In this document: piece by piece, positions 11,320 through 26,676 of the stretch
How the letters are laid out: every line of letters begins with the position of its first letter
Numbering within the stretch: position 1 is the first letter of the stretch
NCBI RefSeq assembly: GCF_009914755.1
Contig: NC_060934.1
DNA: 64,000 nucleotides
Reading direction: 5' to 3' (one strand)
Source: the human T2T-CHM13v2.0 reference genome, Homo sapiens
The notes under the pieces: generated by a model
Told to the model about the DNA's origin: nothing
The model's database searches: none
The model's input: only the letters and a program-made list of their open reading frames with translations
Position numbers and translations under genes: made by a program

Positions 11320-11830
11320 TTAACGCGACTCCGTAAAACTACCCTCCTAGCGACCTCCAACGCCTCGGTCCTCACCCAGAACATCACATTAAACTTTTCA
11401 ACAGTCACAGATAGGAAGGGGCTCGGTGTGGAAGGTGCCAGCTCTGGCTCAGCCCTGCGGGTGAGTGTTTAACTTTCAGCCCAGCTTAAGATCTCCGAAG
11501 ACACCCATCGCCTCGTCCTGCCCAGTCCCCTCCGCTAAAGGGCCGGCCTGCCCGGGCCTGGCTGGCAGCTGACATGAATGGAGAGGAAGCGCCTCCCTCT
11601 CCACCCACTCTCGCCGGGGTTACTGCCGGTCACAGACCCGGGCCTTCAAGAGCTATTTACACCTACAACAGCCCACCAGCGCCTGACCACGCCGGAGCCA
11701 ATCAGCGGCCCCCAAGCTTGTCTGATTCTGTCTGCTCCAATCAGGAGGCGCGGTCCTTCCAGCCTCTTGCTCCTGTGAATCACAGGTCGGCGGGAGCCTT
11801 TTTTCCTTTTTTTTTTTTCCCGGGGAGTCG
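11320..11830 (+). promoter_or_regulatory. CpG-rich promoter with two NF-Y-type CCAAT boxes (putative OLMALINC promoter)
   Basis: The main non-repeat CpG-rich stretch in the window (~11320-12310). AGCCAATCAG (CCAAT 11698-11702) and TCCAATCAG (CCAAT 11737-11741) lie 39 bp apart with GC-rich flanks. No TATA box is evident. Confidence 0.75.
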
Positions 11831-12359
11831 GCCTCGGGGCTCTGCTCTCCTACCTCAGTCTGCCCTACCCTGGAATGGGGAAAATGCGGACATGCCACTC
11901 AGTCCGGCCGCGAACAGTGCTCCAGAACTCAGAGAGTTTTCCAGACGGGTGGAGATCGCGTTCCCTGCCCGCCGAGGTCCCATCGCTTCCCTGCTGGGAA
12001 GACAAATGAGGCGCTTTAGCCGTCTCCACGGCCAGCCCCTCCCTCATAACCCGAGATTCTTTGTGGGCTCTTAGTCCATAGCTGCCTTTGAGGTGGTGTA
12101 GACCTTGCTAACCAGGACGGCCCAGTAGGCAGAGCTCATTTTTATTCCTGTCTGCAATCGTGCAAAAACGCCTCTTATGGAAAAGCCAGAGCGCCAGGAG
12201 TCAGCAAAACACACTAAAGATTGGGCAGTCACTGGGGAGAACGTGAGTAAAAGCACAGGAACAGCAAAGCGTTCAGGAACGTTCGAGGCTGACGCAACCG
12301 GCGCAGGAAGGTGGTGTGTGGTGGGAGAGTGGGAGGAGACAGTGGAAAGTTTAGACTTG

Positions 12360-12950
12360 CTTCTGTAAGTGATAAGAAGTCATCAGATATTTTCAAGCAG
12401 GAGAGGAAAATAATCTCTCTGTTTCGCAAAGTTAACTCTCATGGCAACAGAGCAGAGTAGCGGGGGGATGGGGGCTGGGAGATGTTGGGAAGCTATTGTT
12501 ACCACTCTGGTGAAGAGTCATGGGACCTCAAAAGCTGGGATAGTCACGGTGGGAATGGAAAGGAAGGGCACAAGCTGAGAGGCATTTGGGAGGAGAATCA
12601 ATAGCACTTTATTGACTGGATGTGTGAGATGAGTGAGGACAGCAATCAGAAGAGGACTTTGAGGTTTCTAGCCTGAGTGGCTGGAAGGACACCACTTCCC
12701 CTACCTGAAATAGGTAGCAAAAAGGAGAGAGAAAGAGAGAAGCAGAGGGATTTTGCAAAGGGAATAGGAGTTCAGTTTTTGACATGTGGCATTTGAATTG
12801 CAAGAAGTACATCCCTGTGGATGTAATACCCAGTAGACAGTTGGGAATTAGGATCTGGTGTCGAGAAGAAAAGTAGAGATGAGATCCAAAGGGTTTATAG
12901 TGGATCGGGAGAGAAATTGATGACCTAAAGAGAAATTATAGAATAAGAAG
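12360..12950 (-). mobile_element. L2 LINE fragment
   Basis: Degenerate L2-type text (gaggtttctagcctgagtggctggaagg..., gagttcagtttttgacatgtggcatttga). Confidence 0.6.
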
Positions 12951-14198
12951 ATTTGGGCAGGGCACGGTGGCTCATGCCTGTAATCCCAGCATTTTGGGAG
13001 ACCAAGGTAGGAGGATTGCTTGAGCCCAGGAGTTTGAGACCAGCCTGGGCAACATGGTGAGACCCCGACTCTACAAAAACTGCAAAAATTAGCCGGGTGT
13101 GGTGACACATACCTGTAATTCCAGCTACTTGGGAGGCTGAGGTGGGGGGATCACCTGAGCCTGGGGAGGTCTAGGCTGCAGTGAGCTGAGATAGTGCCAC
13201 TGCACTCCAACCTGGGCAACATAGCAAGAGCAAGACCCTGTCTCAAAAGTAAAAAAAAAAAAAGAAGATTCAAGTACAGAATCTTGGGAAGGTAGAAAGA
13301 GGACACAGAGGCCAGGTGTGGTGGCTCATGCCTGTGATCCCAGCACTTTGGACGCTGAGGTGGGTGGATCATCTGAGGTCAGGAGTTCAAGACCAGCCTA
13401 GCCAACATGGTGAAACCCTGTTTCTATTAAAAATTATCCAGGCATGGTGGCGGGCGCCTGTTAATTCCAGCTTCTCGAGAGGCTGAGGTAGGAGAATGGC
13501 TTGAACATAGGAGGCAGAGGTTGCAGTGAGCTGAGATTGTGCCACTACACTCCAGCCTGGGCAACAGAGTGAGACTCTGTCTCAAAAAAAAAAAAAAAAA
13601 AAAGAGGACACAGAGCTAGCAAAACAGACAAAGAAGTATCAGAAAGATATGAAAAATTAAAAAAAAGCAAACTACGATACTGTAATAGAAATAAGAAAAT
13701 AATTCCAGGAAGAGGAAGCAGGACATTGTTTATGTATGTACAAAACAGTAAGACATTGGTTAAATAAATTATAAAGCATTCATTTGATAGAATACAGCCA
13801 TTAAAATTATGTTGCAAAACTATATAATTGCCATAAAGAGATGTTCAATGCATCTTTTTTCCCCCAGTGCATCTTAGAAACACTCAGGTTAAAAAATAGT
13901 ATATATGCTGGGCACGGTGGCTCACGTCTGTAATCCTAGCACTTTGGGAGGCTGAGGCAGGTGGATCACGAGGTCAGGAGTTTGAGACCACCCTGGCCAA
14001 TGTAGTGAAACCCTGTCTCTACCAAAAATACAAAATTAGCCCGGCATGGAGGCAGGTGCCTGTAATCCCAGCTACTTGGGAGGCTGAGGCAGGAGAATCA
14101 CTTGAACCTGGGAGGCAGATGTTGCAGTGAGCAGAGATTGTGCCACTGCACTCCAGCCCAAGTGACAATGCGAGACTCCATCTCAAAATAAAAAAAAG

Positions 14199-14544
14199 TA
14201 TATATATATGTGTGTATATATATGTATATATATGTGTATATATGTATATATGTGTGTGTATATATGTATATATGTGTGTATATATGTATATATGTGTGTG
14301 TATATATGTATATATGTGTGTATATATGTATATATGTGTATATATGTATATATATGTGTATATATGTGTATATATGTGTATATATGTATATATATGTGTA
14401 TATATGTGTGTATATATGTGTATATATGTGTGTATATATGTGTATATATGTGTGTATATATGTATATATGTGTATATATGTGTGTATATATGCGTATATA
14501 TGTGTGTATATATGTATATATATGTGTGTGTATATGTATATATA
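14199..14544. repeat. Compound (TA/TG)n microsatellite, ~345 bp, extending an Alu tail
   Basis: Units such as tatatatgtg/tatatgta; source of the spurious YTHI/VYIC ORFs. Confidence 0.97.
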
Positions 14545-14989
14545 ATTGTACCATTTTTAAAAATTACATATGTGACTGCAAAAAGGCATGAGAAGGCTGG
14601 GTGGCTCATGCCTGTAATCCCAGCACTTTGGGAGGCCAAGGCAGGCTGATCACCTGAGGTCAGGAGTTTGAGACCAGCCTAGCCAATAATTGTTATACAA
14701 AATAGAACAATTTTTGTATTTTGTAAAAATACAAAAATTAGCCAGGTGTGGTAGCACATGTCTGTAGTCCCACTTACTCAGGAGGCTGAGGCAGGAGAAT
14801 CCCTTGAACCCAAGAGGCGGAGGTTGCAGTGAGCTGAGATTGCACCACTGTACTACAGCCTGGGTGACAGAGTGAGACACCGTCTCAAAAAAAAAAAAGG
14901 CATGAGGAAACTTTTAGGATGAGGGAACTGTTCTATATGTTTGTTGAGGTAATGTATACACAGCTCTGTACAATTATCCAAAATCCTCA

Positions 14990-25200: not shown

Positions 25201-25421
25201 CCTGGTTTTATCTCAAAACACCACCCTTAAGGCTCTCTTGAAGTGGATAGATCTTCAGTGGCAAGGTACCCTCCGATACTTTCACCCTGATGAAGTCCTA
25301 CTCTTTACTTTTATACTCATTCTTATTCTGGTTCCCGATCTTATGCCACCCTCTACCTCTCCCCAGCTATCTCCACCACACTATCAATCTCACTCTCTCC
25401 TAGCCCCGTTTATAATCCTTC

Positions 25422-25712
25422 TTTTTTTTTTGAGATGGAGTCTTGCTCTCTCCCCCAGGCTGGAGTGCAGTGGTGTGATCTTGGCTCACTGCAAGCTCCG
25501 CCTCCTGGGTTCACACCATTCTCCTGCCTCAGCCTCCCAAGTAGCTGGGACTAGAGGTGCCTGCCACCATGCCTGGCTAATTTTTTGTATTTTTAGTAGA
25601 GATGGGGTTTCACCATGTTAGCCAGGATGGTCTCCATCTCCTGACCTCACGATCCGCCCACCTCAGCCTCCCAAAGTGCTGGGATTACAGGCGTGAGCCA
25701 CTATGCCCGGCC
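25422..25712 (-). mobile_element. AluY inserted in HERV-H env region
   Basis: AluY-type positions (gcaagctccgcc, cacaccattctcc, ttagccaggatggtctcc) and TSD taatccttcttt. Confidence 0.88.
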
Positions 25713-25745
25713 CTCTAATCCTTCTTTAACAAACAACTGCTGGCT

Positions 25746-26130
25746 TTGCATTTCTCTTTCCTCCAAAATCACCAAGGCCTCGACTTACTCACTGCTAAAA
25801 AAAGAGGACCCTGTATATTTTTAAACGAAGAGTGTTGTTTTTACCTAAATCAATCTGGCCTGGTATATGACAACATAAAAAAACTCAAGGATAGACCCCA
25901 AAAATTCGCCAACCAAGCAAATAATTATGCTGAACCCCCTTGGGCACTCCCTAATTGGATGTCCTGGGTCCTTCCAATTCTTAGTCCTTTAATACCTATT
26001 TTTCTCTTTCTCTTATTCGGACCTTGTGTCTTCCTTCTGTTTAGTTTCTCAATTCATACAAAACTGCATCCAGGCCATCAACAATCATTCTATACGACAA
26101 ATACTCCTTCTAACAAGCCCACAATATCAC
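25746..26130 (+). pseudogene. HERV-H env transmembrane-subunit remnant
   Basis: LQNHQGLDLLTAKKRGPCIFLNEECCFYLNQSG (immunosuppressive-domain-like motif plus CX6CC), then hydrophobic WVLPILSPLIPIFLFLLFGPC. SU is largely deleted. Confidence 0.88.
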
Positions 26131-26321
26131 CCCTTATCCCCAAATCTTTCTTCAGTTTAATCTCTCCTACTCTAGGTTCCCATGCCGCCCCTAATCCCAC
26201 TCAAAGCAGCCCCGAGAAACATCGCCCATTATCTCTCCATACCACCCCCAAAAATTTTCGCTGCCTCAACACTTCACCACTATTTTGTTTTGTTTTTCAT
26301 ACTAATATAAGAAGATAGGAG

Positions 26322-26676
26322 TGTCAGGCCTCTGAGTCCAAGCTAAGCCATCAAATCCCCTGTGACCTGCACGTGTACATCCAGATGACCTGAAGCAACT
26401 GAAGATCCACAAAAGAAGTGAAAGTAGCCTTAACTGATGACATTCCACCATTGTGATTTGTTCCTGCCCCACGCTAACTGATACCATATATTCTTCCCCC
26501 GCCCTTGAGAATGTACTTTGTACACCTATCCCAAACCTATAAGAACTAATGATAATCCTACCACCCTTTGCTGACTCTCTTTTTGGACTCAGCCCGCCTG
26601 CACCCAGGTGAAATAAACAGCCCTGTTGCTCACACAAAGCCTGTTTGGTGGTCTCTTCACAAGGACGTGCGTGACA
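26322..26676 (+). mobile_element. HERV-H 3' LTR (LTR7 family) with intact AATAAA
   Basis: TGTCAGGCC...GTGACA, AATAAA 26612-26617, single copy of the U3 repeat. Confidence 0.95.

What the first reader, a model, noticed from the sequence alone, without database searches (positions are those of the whole stretch)
11810..26640. A lncRNA assembled from a cellular promoter, a rewired HERV-H LTR and a captured retrocopy
Seen: a CCAAT/CpG promoter with a strong donor at 12242; an acceptor inside the 5' LTR (19490) and the HERV-H major donor (19723) defining a 233-nt exon; a HERV-H acceptor (20577) opening an exon that runs through the gag remnant into the inserted retrocopy and can end at the retrocopy's own ATTAAA/poly(A); and an alternative env-type acceptor (25366) leading to the 3' LTR AATAAA. 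Inference: three independent elements supply the start, internal exon and 3' end, with two alternative last exons of unrelated origin. Recalled: this is the OLMALINC locus, reported as a cis-regulator of SCD. The element-by-element origin is my reading of the sequence.
Basis: partly seen in the sequence, partly recalled or inferred. Interest (0 to 1): 0.8.

Follow-up and report, generated by a model that had tools for sequence, protein, structure and literature searches.

The report
OLMALINC lncRNA built on HERV-H
This is the known human lncRNA gene OLMALINC, whose first exon comes from an old cellular CpG-island promoter and whose other two exons are cut out of a HERV-H provirus; a retrocopy inside that provirus is real but is not shown to be part of the RNA.

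Summary
The sequence features are all present at the stated coordinates. The RefSeq transcript confirms exon 1 (11807-12242) and the 233-nt exon 2 (19491-19723). Exon 2 starts at an AG inside the 5' LTR and ends at the HERV-H leader donor.

RefSeq exon 3 is 26315-26632. It starts 7 nt before the 3' LTR and ends 15 nt after the LTR's AATAAA. I found no transcript evidence for its two proposed acceptors (20577, 25366); both are family-wide HERV-H sequence.

The retrocopy (20747-21831) is genuine. It is a 5'-truncated, polyadenylated copy of a chr5 transcript end lying 2.9-4.0 kb downstream of the SLC9A3 stop codon. It has a 13-nt target-site duplication, and other HERV-H copies show the empty site.

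New detail: the 5' LTR differs from its own 3' LTR at two key positions. GG has become AG, which is the exon-2 acceptor. AATAAA has become AATATA, so the poly(A) signal inside exon 2 is lost. Among 29 other HERV-H 5' ends, AG occurs in 4, AATATA in 1, and both together in 0.

The gene, its LTR7B/HERVH-int overlap and its cis-regulation of SCD are already published. Interest is low to moderate.

The parts
11300..12100 (+). CpG-island promoter with two CCAATCAG boxes (11698, 11737) 109 and 70 nt upstream of the RefSeq start at 11807.
   Evidence: GC 0.59 and CpG o/e 0.65, against 0.17-0.20 in the flanks. The hub table lists RefSeq 'enhancer' elements at 11370-13135. Mills 2015 reports conservation 5' of exon 1 back to opossum and platypus.
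11807..12242 (+). OLMALINC exon 1 (436 nt), of cellular origin, ending at the donor AAC|GTGAGT.
   Evidence: Hub RefSeq table. The donor is among the 5 best of 740 GT sites.
19190..19194 (+). 5' copy of the provirus target-site duplication, CTACG. The 3' copy, CTACA, is at 26677-26681.
   Evidence: flanks: 4 of 5 positions identical.
19195..19580 (+). HERV-H 5' LTR (386 nt, TGTCAGG...GTGACA). It carries a 32-33-nt internal duplication (19367-19393 / 19400-19426), the derived AG at 19489-19490, and AATATA at 19516-19521.
   Evidence: 351 aligned positions against the 3' LTR, 19 differences. Mills 2015's Figure 1 legend names LTR7B.
19491..19723 (+). OLMALINC exon 2 (233 nt). It covers the last 90 nt of the 5' LTR, the primer-binding-site region, and the leader up to the HERV-H donor CGG|GTAAGT.
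   Evidence: Hub RefSeq table.
19581..26321 (+). HERV-H internal region, degraded. Gag start at about 20147 and PPPY at about 20633. Pfam-matching pieces: Gag_p30 21857-22078, RVP 22495-23043, RNase_H 23955-24800, rve 24761-25126, and the env TM C-terminal end 25719-26315. No RT domain was found.
   Evidence: Pfam on 35 of 45 stop-free pieces of 45 aa or more. E-values: Gag_p30 1.1e-5, RVP 1.7e-7, RNase_H 1.6e-19, rve 1.9e-6, TLV_coat 3e-25 (profile positions 448-552 of 560).
20576..20577 (+). It lies in the proline-rich gag p12 coding remnant. Its use is unproven.
   Evidence: AG in 23 of the 26 other copies that hold this region, out of 29 examined; 17 of 18 pyrimidines upstream.
20734..20746 (+). 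5' copy of the retrocopy target-site duplication, AAAGAGATGGCTG. The 3' copy, AAAGAGGTGGCTG, is at 21829-21841.
   Evidence: 25 of 29 other HERV-H copies run uninterrupted across this point (...AGAGGTGGCT-GGAGCTGAAGG...).
20747..21831 (+). Processed, 5'-truncated retrocopy in the sense orientation, with ATTAAA at 21797-21802 and an A16 tail at 21816-21831. The parent is at G000:C5:465320-466376 on the minus strand.
   Evidence: only 2 genome matches, itself and chr5; 967 of 1076 aligned positions identical, and the alignment stops at 21816; the parent continues TTTTGGGTG, with no A run.
23679..23970 (-). Alu insertion (antisense) in the pol remnant.
   Evidence: families D1, D4, D5, D10. The hub table shows masked repeat at 23458-24192.
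25365..25366 (+). It lies between the integrase remnant and the env remnant. Its use is unproven.
   Evidence: the region was found in 12 of 29 other 3' ends, and AG is present in 11 of those 12.
25422..25715 (-). Alu insertion (antisense; it begins with a T run), flanked by TAATCCTTCTTT-type repeats.
26315..26632 (+). OLMALINC exon 3 (318 nt). It comprises 7 nt of the purine-rich tract before the LTR, then the 3' LTR up to the cleavage site 15 nt after AATAAA (26612-26617).
   Evidence: Hub RefSeq table; the acceptor AG is conserved in 27 of 29 other HERV-H 3' ends.
26322..26676 (+). HERV-H 3' LTR (355 nt). It keeps GG at the position of the 5' LTR acceptor and keeps AATAAA.

Best explanation
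OLMALINC is a two-source chimera.

SHOWN:
- Transcription starts at a cellular CpG-island promoter with two CCAAT boxes (start at 11807). The promoter is older than the provirus.
- The RNA runs 7.4 kb downstream into a sense-oriented HERV-H (LTR7B-type) provirus at 19195-26676, which supplies every other processing signal.
- Exon 1 (donor after 12242) is joined to an AG inside the 5' LTR (19490).
- The exon that opens there runs through the rest of the LTR and the leader to the retroviral donor (19723).
- That donor is joined to an AG in the purine-rich tract 7 nt before the 3' LTR (26314).
- The RNA is cleaved at the 3' LTR's own AATAAA site (26632).
- The 5' LTR carries AG where its own 3' LTR has GG, and AATATA where the 3' LTR has AATAAA. 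Most other copies match the 3' LTR at both positions.
- A 1.08-kb processed retrocopy of the distal end of a chr5 transcript sits in gag, inside intron 2, in the sense orientation.

INFERRED:
- These two post-integration substitutions turned the 5' LTR into an internal exon. Before them, the LTR would have ended upstream-initiated transcripts.
- The leader donor also has T at +6 (GTAAGT), the stronger of the two forms seen in the family.
- The chr5 parent is most likely the long 3' UTR of SLC9A3.
- The retrocopy is a passenger. Its ATTAAA could at most give minor intronic polyadenylation.

FROM THE LITERATURE (not tested here): the locus acts in cis on SCD as a promoter/enhancer unit, and the spliced RNA has separate roles.
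For: Exon coordinates come from the hub RefSeq table. All four junction motifs were read.

RT-PCR support from Mills 2015:
- The published primers map at 12099 (exon 1) and 26486 (specific to the 3' LTR; 2 mismatches in the 5' LTR).
- Together they predict a 549-nt exon 1-2-3 product. The paper reports about 560 bp, Sanger-sequenced.
- Mills reports equal read depth on the three exons, and homology to exons 2-3 only in apes and Old World monkeys.
- Benhammou 2019 also Sanger-confirmed the 3-exon transcript.

Provirus:
- Paired LTRs differ at 19 of 351 aligned positions, with a CTAC(G/A) duplication at the flanks.
- Gag, protease, RNase H, integrase and env-TM remnants lie in retroviral order.
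- Other genomic copies are 86-93% identical.

Rewiring, in 29 other HERV-H 5' ends:
- Acceptor position: GG 23, AG 4, TG 2.
- Hexamer: AATAAA 26, ATTAAA 1, AGTAAA 1, AATATA 1.
- AG together with a lost AATAAA: 0 of 29.
- Donor: GTAAGC 21, GTAAGT 6, other 2.

Exon-3 acceptor: AG is present in 27 of 29 other 3' ends, so it pre-existed in the family.

Retrocopy:
- One parent locus elsewhere in the genome.
- The alignment ends exactly where the A16 begins, and the parent has no A run there.
- A 13-nt duplication (12 of 13 identical), and an empty site in 25 of 29 other copies.
- The parent lies 2.9-4.0 kb downstream of an ORF ending ...ALPESTHM* on the same strand, with Na_H_Exchanger exons further upstream.

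General framework: sense-oriented ERVs in transcribed regions donate acceptors, donors and poly(A) signals (van de Lagemaat 2006, passages).
Against: - No cDNA, RNA-seq or primate genome could be examined here. When the two LTR substitutions arose, and whether they were required, is therefore inferred only.
- The 29 comparison copies are the best-scoring of 2308 first-look candidates (40 scored). They are not a random sample.
- AG at the LTR position occurs in 4 of 29 other copies, so it is not unique on its own.
- LTR divergence (K2P 0.056) gives about 13 My at 2.2e-9 per site per year. That is younger than the Old World monkey/ape age implied by Mills. A slower rate or LTR-LTR gene conversion must be assumed. 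Gene conversion would also weaken the argument that the 3' LTR shows the ancestral state.
- Mills's second isoform (OLMALINC-003; primers at 18570 and 19669, 1100 bp unspliced) has a first exon that starts upstream of the LTR. Not all RNA therefore uses the 19490 acceptor.
- Transcripts starting at the LTR's own promoter cannot be excluded.
- The SLC9A3 3'-UTR identity of the parent rests on position only. I had no annotation for chr5.
Confidence: 0.8

Rival explanations
1. The retrocopy is a working alternative last exon: acceptor 20577, through gag into the retrocopy, ending at its ATTAAA/poly(A). A second alternative last exon starts at 25367.
For: - Both AGs have strong pyrimidine tracts: 17 of 18 and 16 of 18, top 3 and top 7 of 980 AG sites.
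- The retrocopy is in the sense orientation and keeps ATTAAA 13 nt before the former cleavage site.
- Mills mentions an Ensembl isoform, OLMALINC-001, whose structure I could not see.
Against: - RefSeq has one transcript, and it uses neither site (hub table).
- Mills found only two isoforms in brain, and both end in the 3' LTR exon.
- Both AGs are ordinary family-wide HERV-H sequence: 23 of 26 and 11 of 12 copies. The first lies in Pro/Ser-rich gag coding sequence, so pyrimidine richness is expected there without any splicing role.
- The same motif count ranks the truly used acceptor (26314) poorly, so it does not predict use.
- The retrocopy did not bring its parent's downstream element. The parent has TTTTGGGTG...TTTGTTT after the cleavage site; the window has HERV-H gag there.
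- The genomic A16 will give internal-priming artefacts.
Confidence: 0.2
2. This is an LTR-driven model. The stable exon 2-3 RNA is mainly started by the HERV-H 5' LTR's own promoter, as in HERV-H lncRNAs of stem cells. Exon 1 joining would then be a minor read-in product.
For: - The 5' LTR keeps a TATAAG-like box at 19447-19452, about 40 nt before exon 2. An LTR-started RNA would therefore look almost the same in exon 2-3 assays.
- Benhammou 2019 reports two active start sites in the region.
- Mills's OLMALINC-003 does not contain exon 1.
Against: - The RefSeq cDNA starts at 11807 (hub table).
- RT-PCR from exon 1 to the 3' LTR gave the expected product.
- Mills reports equal read depth over exons 1, 2 and 3.
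- The two start sites in Benhammou are described as the annotated promoter and an enhancer, with SREBP, RXRA and LXR sites, not as an LTR.
- The exon-2 boundary in RefSeq is an AG acceptor, not a cap site.
Confidence: 0.1

Closest known systems
Sense-oriented endogenous retroviruses that donate splice acceptors, donors and poly(A) signals to host transcripts (van de Lagemaat, Medstrand and Mager 2006, PMC1794541; passages read)
   Same: A sense-oriented, full-length ERV inside a transcription unit supplies an acceptor, then a donor, then a terminal exon with the LTR poly(A) signal.
   Different: In protein-coding genes such events are damaging and are selected against. Here there was no downstream gene to disrupt, and the ERV-derived exons became the body of a stable lncRNA. 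The acceptor used lies in the LTR itself and is a derived state.
LTR7/HERV-H-promoted lncRNAs of pluripotent cells, such as ESRG and LINC-ROR (recalled; not checked here)
   Same: The exon content is LTR/leader up to the HERV-H donor, with splicing out of the provirus interior.
   Different: In those RNAs the LTR is the promoter. In OLMALINC's RefSeq transcript the start lies in a cellular CpG island 7.4 kb upstream, and the LTR is entered by splicing.
HERV-H LTRs as primary polyadenylation signals of human genes (HHLA2 and HHLA3, from Mager's group; recalled, no paper read here)
   Same: The transcript ends at the AATAAA of a HERV-H LTR.
   Different: OLMALINC also takes an internal exon from the paired 5' LTR of the same provirus, whose own AATAAA is lost.
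L1-mediated processed retrocopies (processed pseudogenes)
   Same: Poly(A) tail absent from the parent, a 13-nt target-site duplication, 5' truncation, and insertion at a TT|AAAG site.
   Different: Only 3'-terminal, apparently non-coding sequence was copied, so there is no intron-loss proof. The copy landed inside a provirus that is itself an intron of a lncRNA.

Membership tests
HERV-H provirus (LTR7B / HERVH-int) | Two LTRs in direct orientation (TG...CA), flanked by a short target-site duplication. | tested here: met
   LTRs of 386 and 355 nt, both TGTCAGG...GTGACA, differing at 19 of 351 aligned positions. The flanks read CTACG and CTACA.
HERV-H provirus (LTR7B / HERVH-int) | Internal gag-pro-pol-env remnants in retroviral order. 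| tested here: met
   Gag_p30, a weak zf-CCHC match, RVP, RNase_H, rve and the TLV_coat C-terminal end, in that order. No RVT_1 match was found, and only the env TM end remains.
HERV-H provirus (LTR7B / HERVH-int) | Sequence similarity to the genomic HERV-H family, and RepeatMasker naming. | tested here: met
   39 other matches each, at 86-93% identity. The names LTR7B and HERVH-int come from the Mills 2015 figure legend, not from a classifier run here.
HERV-H provirus (LTR7B / HERVH-int) | Primer-binding site complementary to tRNA-His. | not tested
   TGGTGC... begins 3 nt after the 5' LTR. The match to tRNA-His is recalled, not computed.
L1-mediated processed retrocopy | A non-templated poly(A) tail at the point where the parent transcript ends. 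| tested here: met
   homology ends at 21816. The window has A16, and the parent has TTTTGGGTG. ATTAAA is present in both.
L1-mediated processed retrocopy | A target-site duplication and a demonstrable empty site. | tested here: met
   AAAGAG[A/G]TGGCTG on both sides. 25 of 29 other HERV-H copies are uninterrupted at this point.
L1-mediated processed retrocopy | Loss of introns relative to the parent gene. | not testable with these tools
   The copied 1,065 nt are colinear with parental genomic DNA, as expected for part of one terminal exon. I had no chr5 annotation.
LTR-promoted HERV-H lncRNA | Transcription start inside the LTR. | tested here: not met
   The RefSeq start at 11807 lies in a CpG island (hub table). 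Exon 2 begins at an AG acceptor. An additional LTR start is not excluded.
CpG-island promoter with NF-Y (CCAAT) boxes | GC above 0.5 and CpG o/e above 0.6 over more than 200 nt, with CCAAT boxes 60-110 nt upstream of the start. | tested here: met
   801 nt with GC 0.59 and o/e 0.65. CCAATCAG lies at -109 and -70. Factor binding is not testable here. No exact TCACNCCAC sterol element lies in 11400-12000.
Enhancer-like cis-regulator of SCD | Deleting or activating the locus changes SCD expression in cis, with promoter-promoter looping. | not testable with these tools
   Reported by Benhammou 2019 (passages): CRISPR deletion, CRISPRa and capture Hi-C. Overexpressing the spliced cDNA had no effect on SCD.

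The most novel reading that the evidence does not exclude
The birth of the stable, spliced OLMALINC RNA may trace to two single-base changes in the 5' LTR after integration:
- a G-to-A change that created the exon-2 acceptor;
- the loss of the LTR's AATAAA, which lies 25 nt inside exon 2.

Together these would have converted a transcript-terminating LTR into an internal exon.

That exon contributes 78 of the 100 codons of an ATG ORF. The ORF starts in exon 1 (12177) and stops 4 nt into exon 3 (TAG 26316-26318). LTR and leader sequence may therefore also feed the translated products reported from this RNA.

Prediction: the two derived states should track exon-2 usage across apes and Old World monkeys.
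Probability: 0.45. Interest if true: 0.45.

Novelty: already known. Interest (0 to 1): 0.25.

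Why it matters
OLMALINC is a much-studied human RNA:
- It is highly expressed in white matter.
- It regulates SCD in cis.
- A Nature 2026 paper calls one of its ORFs a 'pan-essential peptidein'.

The papers I searched treat the HERV-H content only as a mapping nuisance. Only the Mills 2015 figure legend and text mention it. The Nature 2026 text contains none of the words HERV, LTR, retrovir or transposable.

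An exact element map has practical uses:
- Two of the three exons, and all splice and poly(A) signals after exon 1, are retroviral.
- The two 5'-LTR changes are the likely switch for exon 2.
- This explains why the gene is restricted to catarrhine primates.
- It warns that exon 2-3 assays, siRNAs and guides sit in repeat-family sequence.
- It gives a simple comparative test of how a lncRNA was born.

It does not change what kind of thing this is.

Tried and rejected

2. Locating the published 123-aa ORF c10riboseqorf92. I could not place it.
- The spliced exon 1-2-3 RNA holds ATG ORFs of 44, 60, 100, 29 and 20 aa.
- The 100-aa frame is open for only 16 more codons upstream, with no ATG among them.
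- No 123-aa + strand ATG ORF exists in the unspliced DNA of 11000-27000.
- A 1-nt indel between assemblies cannot give 123 aa.
- Joining exon 2 to any downstream AG gives 123 aa at three sites in the provirus (21224, 22589, 22669). That number is what chance would give.
- No convincing 69-nt in-frame cassette exon exists.
It probably lies on a GENCODE isoform I could not see.

3. Sterol-response element TCACNCCAC: 11 window matches, none in 11400-12000. The excess comes largely from repeats.

4. Rfam on 10000-28000: no family reached the gathering score.

5. Pfam on retrocopy pieces: no family, consistent with UTR sequence.

6. A named pseudogene for the retrocopy: 'SLC9A3P1' is in 0 papers. 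'SLC9A3P' is in 4 papers, seen as listings only and judged not informative. My recollection of a chromosome-10 SLC9A3 pseudogene is unverified and not used.

7. JBC 2025 and J Hum Transcr 2015: nothing on isoforms or repeats at this locus.

I used the loci instead, and only 12 of 29 reach that region.

Full report
**What the window holds.** The hub table places the window on human chr10 and lists OLMALINC (NR_026762.1) with exons 11807-12242, 19491-19723 and 26315-26632. I read these places directly and extracted the junction motifs:
- AAC|GTGAGT after 12242
- CTCCTTTTTAG|ACT at 19490
- CGG|GTAAGT after 19723
- ATATAAGAAG|ATA at 26314

So are ATTAAA (21797-21802), the A16 run (21816-21831) and AATAAA (26612-26617).

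**Chance.** I counted plain consensus matches over 11807-26700.
- Both donors score 8 of 9, which only 5 of 740 GT sites reach.
- With 18 upstream positions scored for pyrimidines, 19490 has 15, 20577 has 17 and 25366 has 16. These are the top 20, top 3 and top 7 of 980 AG sites that also have a pyrimidine at -3 and no nearby upstream AG.
- The acceptor really used for exon 3 has 9 of 18 and an A at -3.

**Promoter.**
- Positions 11300-12100 have GC 0.59 and CpG o/e 0.65, against 0.17-0.20 on either side.
- Two CCAATCAG boxes lie 109 and 70 nt before the RefSeq start.
- Mills et al. 2015 (PMC4302521, passages read) found homology to exon 1 in all mammals examined, always downstream of SCD. They found conservation 5' of exon 1 back to opossum and platypus.
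- The same paper found homology to exons 2 and 3 only in apes and Old World monkeys.
- Benhammou et al. 2019 (PMC6771395, passages) report CAGE, Pol II, SREBP1/2 and RXRA signals at the start sites, statin, sterol and LXR responsiveness, looping to the SCD promoter, and loss of SCD expression on deletion of the promoter/enhancer. Overexpressing the spliced cDNA did nothing to SCD.
- I found no exact TCACNCCAC element in 11400-12000.

**The provirus.**
- Direct repeats and a global alignment define a 5' LTR at 19195-19580 and a 3' LTR at 26322-26676.
- Both read TGTCAGG...GTGACA. They are flanked by CTACG and CTACA.
- They differ at 19 of 351 aligned positions (12 transitions, 7 transversions; K2P 0.056). 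There is also a 32-33-nt duplication in the 5' LTR and small indels.
- At 2.2e-9 per site per year this gives about 13 My. That is younger than the catarrhine age implied by Mills, so either a slower rate or LTR-LTR gene conversion must be assumed.
- Of 45 stop-free pieces of at least 45 aa in the interior, I sent 35 to Pfam. The 10 left out were leader, Alu and one retrocopy piece.
- Matches came in retroviral order: Gag_p30 (piece 21857-22078), a weak zinc knuckle, RVP (22495-23043), RNase_H (23955-24800), rve (24761-25126), and the C-terminal end of the env TM (25719-26315; TLV_coat profile positions 448-552 of 560).
- No reverse-transcriptase domain and no env surface unit were found.
- Two antisense Alus sit at 23679-23970 and 25422-25715.
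- Mills's Figure 1 legend names LTR7B and HERVH-int for this stretch and notes that LTR7B covers much of the last exon.

**How the exons sit on the provirus.**
- Exon 2 begins 90 nt before the end of the 5' LTR. It crosses the primer-binding-site region and ends at the leader donor.
- Exon 3 begins 7 nt before the 3' LTR, in the purine-rich tract. It ends 15 nt after the LTR's AATAAA.
- Every RNA-processing signal after the exon-1 donor is therefore retroviral, and both come from one element.

**Rewiring of the 5' LTR.** The two LTRs of a provirus are identical at integration. Here they differ at two functionally placed positions:
- 19489 is A where the 3' LTR has G. This makes the AG of the exon-2 acceptor.
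- 19520 is T where the 3' LTR has A. This turns AATAAA into AATATA, 25 nt inside exon 2.

I fetched the 29 best-matching other HERV-H 5' ends from the same genome (40 scored of 2308 first-look candidates, so not a random sample) and tallied these columns:
- Acceptor position: GG 23, AG 4, TG 2.
- Hexamer: AATAAA 26, ATTAAA 1, AGTAAA 1, AATATA 1.
- No copy has AG together with a lost AATAAA.
- Leader donor: GTAAGC in 21, GTAAGT (as here) in 6, damaged in 2.

My inference is as follows. An intact sense-oriented 5' LTR would have polyadenylated RNA arriving from the upstream promoter. The new AG lets the spliceosome enter the LTR, and the lost hexamer lets the exon continue to the strong leader donor. 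This fits the general picture of van de Lagemaat et al. 2006 (PMC1794541, passages): sense ERVs act on host transcripts through acceptors combined with donors or poly(A) signals. One further observation agrees with a weak 5' LTR poly(A) site. Mills's second isoform, whose primers map at 18570 and 19669 (1100 bp unspliced), reads straight through the whole 5' LTR.

**Sites that are ordinary family sequence.**
- The exon-3 acceptor AG is present in 27 of 29 other HERV-H 3' ends.
It lies in Pro/Ser-rich coding sequence next to a PPPY motif, which explains its pyrimidine tract.
- The 25366 AG is present in 11 of the 12 copies that reach that region, out of 29 examined.
- None of this shows use. 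RefSeq has one transcript and uses neither site.
- Mills found two brain isoforms, and both end in the 3' LTR exon. I could not see the structure of the Ensembl isoform that the paper calls OLMALINC-001.

**The retrocopy.**
- The 1,070 nt at 20746-21815 have one other match in the genome, G000:C5:465320-466376 on the minus strand.
- The alignment is colinear, with 967 of 1076 positions identical.
- It stops at window 21816, exactly where the A16 begins. The parent continues TTTTGGGTG.... The A run is therefore a poly(A) tail.
- ATTAAA sits 13 nt before the end in both.
- AAAGAGATGGCTG (20734-20746) and AAAGAGGTGGCTG (21829-21841) flank the insert.
- In 25 of 29 other HERV-H copies the gag sequence runs uninterrupted across this point. 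Three lack the region, and one alignment stopped 2 nt short.
- On chr5 the parent lies 2.9-4.0 kb downstream of an ORF ending ...ALPESTHM* on the same strand. Na_H_Exchanger exons lie further upstream on that strand, and Sec6 exons lie on the opposite strand.
- The parent is therefore most likely the distal part of a long SLC9A3 3' UTR. Without chr5 annotation this remains an inference from position.
- The retrocopy pieces match no Pfam family.
- The insert is sense-oriented inside intron 2, so its ATTAAA could cause some intronic polyadenylation.

**What is in print.**
- 'OLMALINC' with 'HERV-H' gives 0 papers.
- 'LINC00263' with 'HERVH', and 'OLMALINC' with 'LTR7', each give only Mills 2015.
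- That paper treats the LTR as a read-mapping concern.
- The origin of exon 2 in the 5' LTR and leader, the two LTR substitutions and the retrocopy do not appear in the passages I read. These searches cover only the held library and main texts.

**A coding side-note.**
- The spliced RNA (987 nt here; 988 in Mills) has a 100-aa ATG ORF from 12177 to a TAG at 26316-26318.
- 22 codons come from exon 1 and 78 from exon 2.
- A Nature 2026 paper (PMC13275300, passages) reports a 123-aa ORF, c10riboseqorf92, on OLMALINC with a pan-essential CRISPR phenotype.
- Cell Research 2025 (PMC11909191, passages) reports a peptide, pep1-nc-OLMALINC.
- I could not place a 123-aa ORF on the RefSeq exon structure, so I do not know whether it overlaps retroviral sequence.

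**Verdict.** It is wrong or unproven for the last-exon structure and the role of the retrocopy. The locus is a known gene of a known kind. The additions here are the exact element map, the two-position change in the 5' LTR, and the identity of the retrocopy.

Noticed in passing
window 12177-12242 + 19491-19723 + 26315-26318: A 100-aa ATG ORF spans the exon 1-2 junction and stops at a TAG 4 nt into exon 3. 78 of its codons are LTR/leader sequence. The published 123-aa c10riboseqorf92 could not be placed on these exons.
   Followed up: partly
window 26300-26306: TACTAAT, a branch-point-like motif, lies 9 nt before the exon-3 acceptor. None of 29 other HERV-H 3' ends has the C: they read TATTAAT or TATTAAC. 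The distance to the AG is short for a branch point, so its role is uncertain.
   Followed up: partly
window 26310-26314: AAGAAG forms a tandem (NAGNAG-type) acceptor. An AG at 26310-11 lies 3 nt before the one RefSeq uses, and both are conserved in the family (26 and 27 of 29).
   Followed up: no
window 19367-19393 and 19400-19426: A 32-33-nt tandem duplication in the U3 part of the 5' LTR is absent from the 3' LTR.
   Followed up: no
window 21246-21254: A donor-like site, CAG|GTGAGG, inside the retrocopy is one of the 5 best of 740 GT sites. With the 20577 AG it could frame a 671-nt exon. There is no evidence of use.
   Followed up: no
window 18570-19669 (Mills 2015 primers): The primer pairs printed for OLMALINC-002 and -003 appear swapped relative to the stated product sizes. 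18570/19669 gives 1100 bp unspliced, and 12099/26486 gives 549 nt spliced.
   Followed up: yes
window 11798-11822: The RefSeq start (11807) lies inside a 25-nt pyrimidine run (CTTTTTTTCCTTTTTTTTTTTTCCC) just after the CCAAT boxes.
   Followed up: no
L037 (G000:C10:102067532-102067800, minus strand): The closest other HERV-H 3' end (93% identity) lies about 0.8 Mb away on the same chromosome. It alone shares the CAT...GATAGGAG variants next to the exon-3 acceptor.
   Followed up: no
L007 (G000:C10:32167282-32167643): This is the only other HERV-H 5' end among the 29 with AATATA in place of AATAAA. It keeps GG at the acceptor position.
   Followed up: no
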